62,396 bases of DNA from Verrucomicrobia bacterium UBA1183 (GCA_002309885.1 DBYP01000012.1:1-62396); one strand, 5' to 3'. Positions 34,164 to 35,564 are shown, counted from the stretch's first letter. Notes: generated from the letters alone by a model not told the origin. A program made the numbers and translations.

Positions 34164-34238
34164 AGATTTTTCAAGGTACAAAACCTTACCCTAGGTGATG
34201 GTTTTTGCGGTCTCATCGATCCTGACCGCATCGCGTAC

Positions 34239-34925
34239 ATGAGGATTTGCGTATCGCATACCGGAGATCCGACACACAGACTCGAATTCTCCACAGACAC
34301 GATAACTCCAGCTATTGTAGAGGCTTTTGAAGACTTCAAATGTCAATGTGAAGCCCTGTTCCAATCCGCACAAGAGACCGCACAATTCGTCTATCAATAC
34401 GCCGCTGAACATCGGGACCAACTGTCTATTGCGATTGATTTTATCCCCGGTGTTGCCAACGTGCGTGCCGGTGTGGAACTGCTCACAGGTCACGATTACG
34501 TTACTGGCGAAGACGTTTCGCGTTTGGCTGCTGCTGCGAATTTTATCCCCGGACGACGTGCCCTTGAAAAAGTCAGCCCTTGCCTAGGTTTCGCAAAAAA
34601 ATCGAAGAAAGTCTTGACTCATGGCAAGAAAGGTAGACAATTAAAGGCAGGTGCTGGTTTTTCCGAAAAACTTGCCAGTGGTGAGGCCGTACGAAAGATT
34701 GAGCGCGGTCGTTTCACGACGGTTACAACTTATGCAGATGGAACGGTGCGTAGGGCTATGAATGTTGATGTAGTTAACGAGCATTTGAAAAGCCTTACTA
34801 AAGGTAAAGATCCTATACTTAAAAGAATGACGGGGGATCACAAGAGGACTCAAGGAACTGTAACTTATAAAGTGGAACGGGATAGTGGTTGTTTACGGGA
34901 AGGGCACTGTATAAACCATCGGTAG
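34239..34925 (+). CDS. orphan toxin C-terminal cassette (PT-TG module plus alternative toxin tip, no own N-terminus)
   Basis: 34183-34612 is ~85-90% identical (by eye) to 32676-33106 of the giant gene, then diverges into a different ~105-aa tip. The frame is open from 34164, directly after the immunity stop, and there is no RBS for the homologous part. Confidence 0.75.
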   Translation: MRICVSHTGDPTHRLEFSTDTITPAIVEAFEDFKCQCEALFQSAQETAQFVYQYAAEHRDQLSIAIDFIPGVANVRAGVELLTGHDYVTGEDVSRLAAAANFIPGRRALEKVSPCLGFAKKSKKVLTHGKKGRQLKAGAGFSEKLASGEAVRKIERGRFTTVTTYADGTVRRAMNVDVVNEHLKSLTKGKDPILKRMTGDHKRTQGTVTYKVERDSGCLREGHCINHR

Positions 34926-35011
34926 AAGGAGCAAATACACATGCACACATTGAAGTTAGATCTTCCAAGAAGCCAGACGCAAAAGAACCTTTATCTGACG
35001 CAAAGCGAAGA

Positions 35012-35564
35012 AGACCACGGGTTCCACCGTGGATGAATTAAGCTTGAGCCGGATTTTGTTACCCATATGATACGAATATATGGAAGTAAAACGGAGTGGG
35101 CACGGAGTCTATACGCAGTCATATCACGTGGTTTGGGTAACAAAATATCGGCGAAAGATTCTGAATCCGGGTATGGTTGAGTACCCTCGGCGCATTTTGC
35201 CGCAGCTTGTACGAAGTATGCCGGGTGTTGAACTGGAGCAGATGGTGTTTGACGAAGATCATATGCATTTTGTCATTGGAATTCCTCCTAAGTACGCCAT
35301 TGCGGACGTAATGAGTGAGTTGAAAAACCGATCTGCGTCGTTATTGCGAGAGAAATTCGATTTCCTAAAAAAAGTGTATTGGAAGGAAAAAGTCATTTGG
35401 TCGCCCGGTTACTTCGTTAGCAGCGTAGGCATTAACAAGTCGATTGTTATGAACTATGTCAAATGGCAAGAACTCCAGGATTCAGATCAGCTCCGTATGG
35501 AGCTGTAAGGTCGCCATCGGCGACCTCAGGACCACGGGTTCTACCCGTGGGTATATCTATTTTC
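35012..35564 (+). mobile_element. IS200/IS605-family insertion sequence (IS200 type, tnpA only)
   Basis: Subterminal hairpins CCACGGGTTCCACCGTGG (35014-35031), GGTCGCCATCGGCGACC (35519-35535) and ACCACGGGTTCTACCCGTGGGTAT (35541-35564) flank the Y1 transposase. No terminal inverted repeats, as expected for this family. Confidence 0.8.
35080..35508 (+). CDS. tnpA: IS200-family Y1 (HUH) transposase
   Basis: 142 aa. YHVVWVTKYRRKIL, the HUH motif DHMHFVIGIPP and WSPGYFVSSVG (catalytic Tyr) are classic IS200 TnpA features. Confidence 0.92.
   Translation: MEVKRSGHGVYTQSYHVVWVTKYRRKILNPGMVEYPRRILPQLVRSMPGVELEQMVFDEDHMHFVIGIPPKYAIADVMSELKNRSASLLREKFDFLKKVYWKEKVIWSPGYFVSSVGINKSIVMNYVKWQELQDSDQLRMEL

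What the first reader, a model, noticed from the sequence alone, without database searches (positions are those of the whole stretch)
34164..35036. Orphan toxin cassette with a 430-bp recombination tract; the next ORF is cut by IS200
Seen:
- 34183-34612 repeats 32676-33106 of the giant gene (the pre-toxin/PT-TG region) at high identity by eye.
- The sequence then diverges into an unrelated ~105-aa tip (KKVLTHGKKGRQLKAGAGF...VTYKVERDSGCLREGHCINHR).
- The cassette has no start or RBS of its own for the homologous part. It begins immediately after the immunity stop, in the same frame.
- Downstream, AAGGAG (34926-34931) plus ATG 34941 opens an ORF (MHTLKLDLPRSQTQKNLYLTQSEED...). It runs into the IS200 left-end hairpin at 35014 after about 25 codons.

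Established: orphan CT/immunity modules with upstream homology are how CdiA, Rhs and MafB loci swap tips by recombination.

Inference: this is a silent alternative tip. Its putative immunity gene has been destroyed by the IS insertion, which would make a switch to this tip self-lethal.
Basis: partly seen in the sequence, partly recalled or inferred. Interest (0 to 1): 0.7.

Follow-up and report, generated by a model that had tools for sequence, protein, structure and literature searches.

The report
Decayed orphan toxin tip, no immunity gene
Downstream of a giant bacterial toxin gene lies a leftover copy of the gene's 3' end carrying a different toxin tip, but the tip is frameshifted, cut by a mobile element and has no antidote gene, so it is an ordinary genomic fossil rather than a usable spare weapon.

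Summary
The repeat is real. Bases 34178-34610 match 32673-33105 of the 2427-aa toxin gene at 87% identity, and both copies encode a PT-TG pre-toxin domain. The sequence then diverges into a different tip.

The tip has rare homologues (P0003-P0006). They show it is broken:
- Its reading frame shifts between 34905 and 34933.
- The conserved C-terminal block (NTHAHIEVR..KK..AKEPL) is still present at 34934-34993, in another frame.
- An IS200/IS605 element cuts it at 34994/34995, not at the hairpin at 35014.
- About 17 final codons are missing.

In three other loci this tip family is followed directly by a ~180-aa DUF6980 immunity gene. Here none exists: only 36 nt separate the IS from the stop of psd.

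Independent cow-rumen assemblies of the same species carry the identical frameshift and IS. Related species have no toxin locus beside psd.

Verdict: this is a degenerate orphan ("fossil") module of a polymorphic toxin locus in a rumen Verrucomicrobiota bacterium. It is a known kind of feature and of low interest. Switching to this tip would yield a truncated, probably inactive toxin and would delete the resident immunity gene.

The parts
26143..33426 (+). Full-length polymorphic toxin gene (2427 aa): signal-peptide-like N-terminus, filamentous-haemagglutinin-type repeats, PT-TG pre-toxin domain, C-terminal tip
   Evidence: ORF list and translation. Pfam PT-TG at residues 2259-2321 (E = 1.6e-11) and Fil_haemagg_2 at 25.2 bits (cut-off 22). 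No TPS domain found.
32673..33105 (+). Repeat copy 1: pre-toxin (PT-TG) tract inside the giant gene
   Evidence: Local alignment and BLASTN, 87% identity, E = 3e-146.
33106..33423 (+). Resident toxin tip (~106 aa), family unassigned
   Evidence: Diverges from the orphan at 33105/34610. No Pfam or PDB sequence match. AF2 single-sequence model has pLDDT 50 and is not usable.
33420..34163 (+). Resident immunity-type gene (247 aa; 243 aa from ATG 33432), DUF6980
   Evidence: Pfam DUF6980 at 30.3 bits against a cut-off of 27. Homologous to the 186-aa partner of tip P0003, BLASTP E = 3e-9. Called as 243 aa in L093.
34178..34610 (+). Repeat copy 2: orphan pre-toxin (PT-TG) tract, codon-aligned with copy 1
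   Evidence: dN/dS between the copies is 0.21 with dS 0.40. Longest identical runs are 52, 36, 29 and 23 nt.
34611..34904 (+). Orphan tip, part still in the original frame (KKVLTHGKKGRQL...RGRFTTV...DSGCLREG)
   Evidence: Homologous to P0003 (58% over 74 aa), P0004 and P0005.
34905..34933 (+). Frameshift/deletion zone: 29 nt where L090 has 51 nt (net -22 nt). The conserved QFVRLDKA motif is unrecognisable in any frame. The TAG at 34923 is a consequence of the frame error.
   Evidence: DNA alignment with L090 and three-frame translation.
34934..34994 (+). Orphan tip, continuation in the +2 frame (NTHAHIEVRSSKKPDAKEPL).
Evidence: BLASTP against P0006: 16/20 identical, E = 3e-9. Alignment A1.
34995..35563 (+). 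IS200/IS605-family insertion sequence: left-end hairpin 35015-35032, tnpA 35080-35508 (142 aa, HUH motif HMH, catalytic-Tyr region SPGYF), two right-end hairpins 35508-35550. The left flank is TTTAT.
   Evidence: Pfam Y1_Tnp E = 2.3e-29; NCBIfam transpos_IS200 at 111 bits against a cut-off of 55. Ends defined by comparison with the copy at 6936-7155 and with L090. Hairpins folded.
35564..35599 (.). 36-nt spacer between the IS right end and the stop codon of psd; there is no room for an immunity gene
   Evidence: Sequence. In-silico excision gives only ...EPLSFLIIF*. Homology with related species ends at 35610.
35600..36490 (-). psd (phosphatidylserine decarboxylase), a convergent housekeeping gene that bounds the locus
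   Evidence: Pfam PS_Dcarbxylase E = 1.2e-49. Synteny with ABC transporter genes is conserved in relatives.
6936..7155 (-). tnpA-less derivative of the same IS (left and right ends joined, ~220 bp); used here to define the IS boundaries
   Evidence: Self-BLAST and alignments. It shares the same TTTAT left flank.

Best explanation
The region is a degenerate orphan toxin module. It is a 'fossil' of an earlier or alternative 3' end of the giant FHA-repeat/PT-TG polymorphic toxin gene.

Inferred origin: a tip-plus-immunity module was displaced downstream when the present tip and its DUF6980 immunity gene were integrated by recombination in the PT-TG region. Alternatively it was deposited there by horizontal transfer. 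Either way it kept ~430 nt of pre-toxin sequence.

Shown: the module has since decayed.
1. A net -1 frameshift with loss of about 22 nt destroyed the RLDxA motif and created the TAG at 34923.
2. An IS200/IS605 element inserted after TTTAT inside the tip.
3. The last ~17 codons of the tip and the whole cognate immunity gene are gone. The IS now lies 36 nt from psd, at a point where gene order differs in all related species examined.

Consequence (inferred): the cassette is not a working spare weapon. RecA-type recombination between the two 87%-identical tracts remains physically possible, since identical runs reach 52 nt. It would make an in-frame fusion to a truncated tip and delete the resident tip and immunity gene (1505 bp). 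The recombinant would have no functional toxin and would be sensitive to its siblings.
For: - Repeat and PT-TG domains.
- Tip homologues extend ~45 aa beyond the window's stop.
- The +2-frame match NTHAHIEVR..KK..AKEPL to P0006 has E = 3e-9 and 0/2000 shuffles.
- The DNA alignment with L090 shows the 22-nt deficit and ends exactly at CCTTTAT|.
- The IS ends are defined by a second copy.
- The cognate immunity (a DUF6980 protein of ~180 aa) directly follows the tip in L083-L088, L089 and L091.
- tblastn finds no such gene anywhere in the 62-kb window apart from the resident immunity gene.
- Independent assemblies from cow rumen (L093, L095) carry the identical frameshifted orphan. All four (L092-L095, 99.7-100% identical) carry the IS beside psd, so this is not an assembly error.
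- dN/dS of 0.21 with dS of 0.40 between the tracts shows they diverged as functional coding sequence. The divergence is comparable to the DNA divergence between related species (~85% identity in the psd region), so this is not a recent local duplication.
- A related species (L001/L002) has further decayed PT-TG orphan fragments next to an IS.
- The literature describes fragmented orphan modules with transposases as displaced 3' ends: PMC4927057.
Against: - No close relative with an intact version of this orphan was found. The order of events (frameshift, IS insertion, loss of the 3' end and immunity gene) and the displacement origin are therefore inferred, not shown.
- The tip's toxic activity is inferred only from context. 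There is no Pfam family, and the AF2 model (pLDDT 62) has no significant PDB match.
- It is untested whether the N-terminal two thirds of the tip alone could still be toxic.
- The orphan frame stays open for 253 codons, which could be taken as a sign of residual constraint.
Confidence: 0.85

Rival explanations
1. One reading: a silent but functional alternative tip whose immunity gene (ORF 34941) was destroyed by IS200, so that switching would be self-lethal.
For: There is a homology tract and a distinct tip. AAGGAG plus ATG lies 9 nt apart at 34926-34943. The IS lies immediately downstream.
Against: - ORF 34941 shows no similarity to the cognate immunity proteins in the shuffle test (score at chance), and tblastn with the immunity proteins finds nothing at 34941.
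- The same nucleotides encode the conserved toxin block in the +2 frame (E = 3e-9).
- After in-silico excision of the IS the ORF would be only 21 aa.
- The tip itself is frameshifted and truncated.
Confidence: 0.03
2. A recent in-situ tandem duplication of the 3' end of the giant gene followed by neutral decay, rather than displacement or horizontal acquisition of a diverged module.
For: The two tracts are tandem, in the same orientation and codon-aligned.
Against: - dS of 0.40 with dN/dS of 0.21 means most of the divergence accumulated under purifying selection.
- The amount of divergence is like that between related species.
- The two tips are unrelated (hhalign E = 0.63).
- The orphan linker (to 34670) is shared with a different orphan in L001 but not with the resident gene.
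Confidence: 0.07
3. The orphan is still expressed, from ATG 34239 or by coupling to the immunity gene, as a 228-253-aa cytoplasmic protein with some function. For example, it might titrate an immunity or chaperone protein or act as a regulator.
For: The frame is open for 253 codons. Gene callers predict P0001 (228 aa). The sequence is identical in the independent assemblies that span it (L093, L095).
Against: - There is no Shine-Dalgarno-like sequence before 34239, and no above-chance promoter signal.
- The ATG is just the conserved Met of the PT tract, which is also present in the resident copy.
- The identity among assemblies reflects near-clonal sampling (only 0-6 mismatches per 1.9-8 kb contig), not selection.
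Confidence: 0.05

Closest known systems
Orphan cdiA-CT/cdiI modules downstream of cdiBAI loci (Poole et al. 2011; Ruhe et al. 2016, PMC4927057)
   Same: It is a 3' fragment in the same orientation as the full-length gene. It retains a pre-toxin homology tract, carries a different tip and is associated with a transposase. It is described in the literature as a displaced 'fossil' and is often fragmented.
   Different: - The pre-toxin is PT-TG, not VENN; no VENN motif is present.
- The giant protein has no detectable TPS domain, and there is no CdiB/TpsB gene in 62 kb.
- The host is a Verrucomicrobiota bacterium.
- This orphan has lost its immunity gene and its tip is frameshifted.
Orphan rhs-CT/rhsI module of Salmonella Typhimurium, which can be activated by recombination (Koskiniemi et al. 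2014, cited in PMC4927057)
   Same: It has the same architecture of core homology plus an alternative tip. Recombination between the tracts would fuse the orphan to the main gene.
   Different: - There the orphan tip and its immunity gene are intact and the switch gives a selective advantage. Here the product would be a truncated tip without immunity.
- The tracts here are only 87% identical.
PT-TG-containing polymorphic toxins (Zhang et al. 2012, PMC3482391; Pandoomain survey 2026, PMC13483458)
   Same: A PT-TG domain lies immediately N-terminal to a variable toxin tip. PT-TG has been reported together with FHA-type repeats of CDI-like proteins.
   Different: - The tip families here are unannotated.
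- The immunity partners are DUF6980 proteins. No paper in the searched library mentions DUF6980.
IS200/IS605 family insertion sequences (Y1 HUH transposase, peel-and-paste)
   Same: It has a 142-aa Y1 transposase and subterminal hairpins. It has no terminal inverted repeats and no target duplication. Insertion is 3' of a short conserved sequence: TTTAT flanks both copies.
   Different: Nothing notable. A tnpA-less derivative is also present at 6936-7155.

Membership tests
Orphan toxin/immunity module of a polymorphic toxin locus | Lies downstream of a full-length toxin gene and its immunity gene, in the same orientation | tested here: met
   Giant gene 26143-33426, immunity 33420-34163, orphan from 34164, all on the + strand.
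Orphan toxin/immunity module of a polymorphic toxin locus | 5' tract homologous to the pre-toxin region of the upstream gene | tested here: met
   433 nt at 87% identity, E = 3e-146; PT-TG in both copies.
Orphan toxin/immunity module of a polymorphic toxin locus | Lacks the N-terminal secretion and repeat region and has no translation start of its own | tested here: met
   Homology starts 15 nt after the immunity stop. The only ATG (34239) is the conserved internal Met and has no SD-like sequence.
Orphan toxin/immunity module of a polymorphic toxin locus | Intact alternative toxin tip | tested here: not met
   Net -1 frameshift at 34905-33, IS insertion at 34994/5, and the last ~17 codons absent relative to P0003, P0005, P0006 and L091.
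Orphan toxin/immunity module of a polymorphic toxin locus | Cognate immunity gene immediately downstream of the tip | tested here: not met
   The tip family is followed by a DUF6980 gene in L083-88, L089 and L091. Here there are only 36 nt between the IS and psd, and tblastn finds no second copy in the window.
CdiA/CdiB contact-dependent inhibition (type Vb secretion) | N-terminal TPS secretion domain (Pfam Haemagg_act) in the large protein | tested here: not met
   No hit at E <= 0.1 for the whole protein, nor at E <= 0.001 for residues 1-500. PDB phmmer also gave nothing.
CdiA/CdiB contact-dependent inhibition (type Vb secretion) | Adjacent CdiB/TpsB outer-membrane transporter gene | tested here: not met
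   Of the 25 ORFs scanned with Pfam, including all the large (>=380-aa) ORFs of the 62-kb window, none hits ShlB or POTRA_2. The genes upstream are IS transposases. It could lie elsewhere in the genome.
CdiA/CdiB contact-dependent inhibition (type Vb secretion) | FHA-type beta-helical repeats | tested here: met
   Fil_haemagg_2 at 25.2 bits (cut-off 22). Fil_haemagg at 18.5 bits is below its cut-off. This is weak.
CdiA/CdiB contact-dependent inhibition (type Vb secretion) | VENN (or equivalent) pre-toxin motif delimiting the CT | tested here: not met
   No VENN, VDNN or ELYN motif. The delimiter is PT-TG followed by LGFAKxSKK.
PT-TG pre-toxin domain (PF14449) | Score above the Pfam gathering threshold, located directly N-terminal to the variable tip | tested here: met
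   44.4 bits (resident) and 49.2 bits (orphan) against 23.5.
IS200/IS605 insertion sequence | Y1 (HUH) transposase TnpA | tested here: met
   PF01797 E = 2.3e-29; NF033573 at 111 bits against 55. The HMH and SPGY motifs are in the translation.
IS200/IS605 insertion sequence | Subterminal hairpins, no terminal inverted repeats, no target-site duplication, insertion 3' of a fixed short sequence | tested here: met
   Left-end hairpin 35015-32 and right-end hairpins (z = -7.4). The flanks TTTAT|...|CTTTT are not duplicated. TTTAT also flanks the copy at 7155. Only two copies were compared.

The most novel reading that the evidence does not exclude
The orphan's tip (RGRFTTV...CLKKGQFVRLDxA...HAHIEV...LFECxIDExG) and its DUF6980-type partner may form an undescribed toxin-immunity family. 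It was seen in only six sequences/loci (the window, P0003, P0004/L091, P0005/L089, P0006/L090), found by searches of 1.84 billion and 5.8 billion proteins. It is fused to two different pre-toxin regions. DUF6980 proteins also partner the unrelated resident tip, which would assign a first function (immunity) to DUF6980. The parent giant toxin lacks a TPS domain and a TpsB partner in the window, which leaves open a non-type-Vb export route in Verrucomicrobiota.
Probability: 0.5. Interest if true: 0.35.

Novelty: new member of a known kind. Interest (0 to 1): 0.2.

Why it matters
It matters little beyond annotation. Three points are worth recording:
- Polymorphic-toxin loci with orphan modules occur in rumen Verrucomicrobiota and decay there under heavy IS activity.
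- An apparent RBS plus ATG after an orphan tip can be a wrong-frame reading of the tip itself, so it should not be taken as an immunity gene without checking.
- The useful by-products are a candidate new toxin tip family and evidence that DUF6980 proteins act as immunity partners.

Tried and rejected
- A colicin-E3-like reading of the resident tip, and by extension of the orphan tip, was suggested by eye (D..H....H.E...DP.TG). It is not supported. phmmer against PDB found no E3 or CdiA-CT hit. Pfam gave nothing. hhalign of the tip family against the resident tip gave E = 0.63. The AF2 model of the resident tip had pLDDT 50 and was unusable.
- The fold of the orphan tip family could not be assigned. 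AF2 on a 6-row alignment gave pLDDT 62, and Foldseek against PDB gave no hit with E < 0.001.
- An in-frame nonsense mutation (AAG to TAG) was my first idea for the stop at 34923. I replaced it with a frameshift once the +2-frame match was found.
- A short resemblance of MHTLKLDLPRSQT to HMAHLKLNLPKKT in a 155-aa ORF of L084 was seen by eye. tblastn against the window gave no hit at E <= 0.1, so I treat it as chance.
- The search for an intact version in relatives led nowhere. The GTDB genome scan with psd gave a best hit of 57%. The JGI metagenome scan with the PT tract gave nothing. Exact look-ups of the ORF-list versions of psd and the immunity protein failed because the start codons differ. 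Related species found through psd homologues have other genes downstream of psd.
- An assembly artefact was rejected. Assemblies L093 and L095 span the orphan and carry the identical sequence, and L092-L095 all carry the IS beside psd.

Full report
**1. The observation**

A local alignment and a self-BLAST of the window confirm the repeat. Bases 32673-33105, inside the 2427-codon ORF 26143-33426, match 34178-34610 at 376/432 identical positions (87%). There is one compensating indel pair, and E = 3e-146. Both copies are codon-aligned in their reading frames, and both encode a Pfam PT-TG pre-toxin domain (44.4 and 49.2 bits, cut-off 23.5).

After 33105/34610 the two sequences are unrelated. The orphan frame is open from 34164, directly after the TAA of the upstream 247-aa DUF6980 gene and in phase with it. 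Homology to the giant gene starts 15 nt later.

**2. What the tip is**

The tip has no Pfam, NCBIfam or PDB sequence match. An exhaustive HMMER search of 1.84 billion representative proteins found only three relatives: P0003, P0004 and P0005. A word-indexed search with P0003 added P0006.

In all of them the domain runs about 45 residues further than in the window...DCLKKGQFVRLDKA(x)nHAHIEVRADK..PLFECxIDExGxF.... The family occurs in two contexts:
- behind PT-TG, in the window;
- behind a different, DUF637-associated pre-toxin region, in L089 and L091.

In three independent loci (L083-L088, L089, L091) it is followed immediately by a ~180-aa gene. That gene has a (faint) DUF6980 match in L083-L088 and is a homologue of the L083 protein in L089 and L091. 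This is the contextual signature of a polymorphic-toxin tip with its immunity gene (Zhang et al. 2012, PMC3482391). The enzymatic activity remains unknown. An AF2 model of P0003 reached pLDDT 62 and had no significant PDB neighbour.

**3. The tip in the window is broken, and 'ORF 34941' is part of it**

Three-frame translation of 34860-35000 shows that the +2 frame reads ...ANTHAHIEVRSSKKPDAKEPLS. Three results support this as the true coding frame:
- The stretch 34934-34993 matches P0006 residues 70-87 at 16 of 20 positions (BLASTP E = 3e-9).
- It aligns column for column with the other homologues.
- It beats all 2000 shuffles.

At the DNA level, the window has 29 nt between CLREG and NTHAHIEV where L090 has 51 nt. 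That is a net loss of 22 nt and a -1 frame error, and the conserved QFVRLDKA motif is no longer recognisable in any frame. The TAG at 34923 is thus a by-product of the frameshift. ORF 34941 is in phase with the orphan frame (34941 - 34164 = 777), and it is a wrong-frame reading of toxin sequence. The AAGGAG at 34926 is decayed toxin coding sequence.

**4. The IS200 element**

tnpA (35080-35508) is a typical Y1 transposase (PF01797, E = 2.3e-29; NF033573 at 111 bits).

The left end is not at the hairpin (35015-32) but at 34995. Two observations place it there:
- Similarity to a tnpA-less copy at 6936-7155 begins at the shared flank TTTAT (34990-94).
- Similarity of the toxin to L090 ends exactly at CCTTTAT|.

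The right end is at about 35563. Both ends carry the expected subterminal hairpins.

The element therefore sits inside the toxin tip, after the codons for ...KEPL, where the homologues continue FECxIDExGKF.... After the IS only 36 nt remain before the stop codon of the convergent psd gene (35600). In-silico excision adds just SFLIIF*. So the last ~17 codons of the tip and the whole immunity gene (~560 nt in the homologous loci) are absent. tblastn with the cognate immunity proteins finds nothing else in the 62-kb window except a weak hit to the resident DUF6980 gene.

**5. Population and relatives**

The psd protein of the window is found with identical sequence on four further contigs:
- Logan SRR5324836;
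- two runs of bovine gut project PRJNA60251;
- JGI CowR.

These contigs are 99.7-100% identical to the window. All have the IS next to psd, and L093 and L095 contain the same frameshifted orphan. The structure is therefore real, and it is fixed in what has been sampled.

The organism is a Verrucomicrobiota bacterium. The best GTDB psd match is 57%, to an Opitutales MAG. Related species with 83-85% psd identity have three different gene sets downstream of psd and no toxin locus there. DNA homology to the window ends at 35610. The 3' end of psd is thus a rearrangement breakpoint, and the ancestral right-hand junction of the orphan cannot be recovered from available data.

Another related species (L001/L002, ~85% nt identity) has two further decayed PT-TG fragments beside an rve-type IS. 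One carries a weakly Tox-SHH-like tip and a 146-aa downstream ORF. Orphan decay is therefore recurrent in this lineage.

**6. Origin and mechanism**

Between the two PT tracts dS is 0.40 and dN/dS is 0.21. Most of the divergence therefore arose while both sequences were under purifying selection. The amount of divergence equals that between related species (~85% DNA identity in the psd region).

This argues against a recent local duplication. It favours the 'fossil' model of Ruhe et al. (PMC4927057): a module displaced, or deposited, by recombination in the pre-toxin region and then left to decay among transposases. This step is inferred.

Recombination between the tracts is still conceivable, since identical runs reach 52 nt. 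It would give an in-frame 2426-aa fusion ending ...CINHR* and would delete 1505 bp, including the resident tip and immunity gene. The predicted outcome is a cell with an inactive tip and no immunity to its siblings. It is not a cell poisoned by the orphan toxin.

**7. Comparison with known systems**

Functionally and architecturally this is an orphan CT module as described for cdi, rhs and maf loci. It fails two criteria of an intact orphan: an intact tip and an adjacent immunity gene.

The parent gene should not be called CdiA. No TPS domain, no VENN motif and no TpsB gene were found, and the FHA-repeat signal is weak. PT-TG combined with FHA repeats has been catalogued (PMC13483458).

**8. 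Verdict**

The feature is an ordinary, degenerate orphan module, a new member of a known kind.

Minor points of novelty are the unannotated tip family and the repeated pairing of DUF6980 proteins with toxin tips. No paper in the searched library mentions DUF6980.

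Noticed in passing
window 6936-7155 (- strand): A ~220-bp tnpA-less derivative of the IS200/IS605 element: left and right ends with hairpins, joined by a short unrelated core. It is flanked on its left-end side by the same TTTAT. 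It looks like a non-autonomous (PATE/MITE-like) copy.
   Followed up: partly
window 24453-25208 and 25289-25945 (+): Two tandem paralogous ORFs (251 and 218 aa) lie directly upstream of the giant toxin gene. Their coiled-coil C-terminal halves are 94% identical at the DNA level (24857-25209 vs 25595-25946). Their N-termini look hydrophobic, like signal peptides. They have no Pfam match. A role as accessory proteins of the toxin is possible but untested.
   Followed up: no
window 20432-23725; repeats also at 42912-43051 and 62056-62396: A cluster of three different IS transposases (rve, DDE_Tnp_4, IS1595-like) lies upstream of the toxin locus. The window also contains several ~140-210-nt IS-end repeats. 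The genome appears IS-rich and heavily rearranged relative to related species.
   Followed up: partly
window 26143-27642 and the whole window: The 2427-aa toxin has a signal-peptide-like start and a Pro/Ala-rich linker. It has no TPS domain, and no TpsB/ShlB gene occurs in 62 kb. A type II secretion cluster (secretin, GspE- and GspF-like genes) lies at 44165-49891. The export route of the toxin is unknown.
   Followed up: partly
window 33420-34163; L083 3449-4009; L089 1-249 and 1451-1579; L091 2136-2663: DUF6980 proteins, with a CPxCG zinc-ribbon-like motif and a conserved DEWWKKR segment, follow two unrelated toxin tips. L089 even shows the same order of modules as the window: DUF6980 gene, then a toxin with the orphan's tip family, then a second DUF6980-type gene (a homologue of the L083 immunity protein). 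This suggests that DUF6980 is an immunity-protein family.
   Followed up: partly
L001 9600-11250 (and L002): A related species carries two 5'-truncated PT-TG orphan fragments, one with an in-frame stop. They sit next to an rve IS, between housekeeping genes and TA modules (PIN, YoeB). The first has a Tox-SHH-like tip (weak Pfam hit) and a 146-aa downstream ORF. No full-length toxin gene is nearby.
   Followed up: partly
L091 1745-2116: Another copy of the orphan's tip family carries an in-frame stop (GKNPI*KKLKEE) but is otherwise complete. It is followed by an intact DUF6980-type immunity gene homologous to that of L083, so immunity outlives the toxin there.
   Followed up: no
window 35600-35610 and L096-L105: The 3' end of psd is a synteny breakpoint. 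Three related lineages have three different gene sets downstream: Exo_endo_phos/PGI, FHIPEP, and SUF. An ~80-nt repeat found in the window at 56195-56274 and 44016-44162 sits right after psd in L096 and L097.
   Followed up: partly
window 8340-10599 (+): An EcoRI-type adenine methyltransferase gene (E = 3e-141) overlaps a GmrSD_N/HNH endonuclease gene. This is probably a restriction-modification or defence pair.
   Followed up: no
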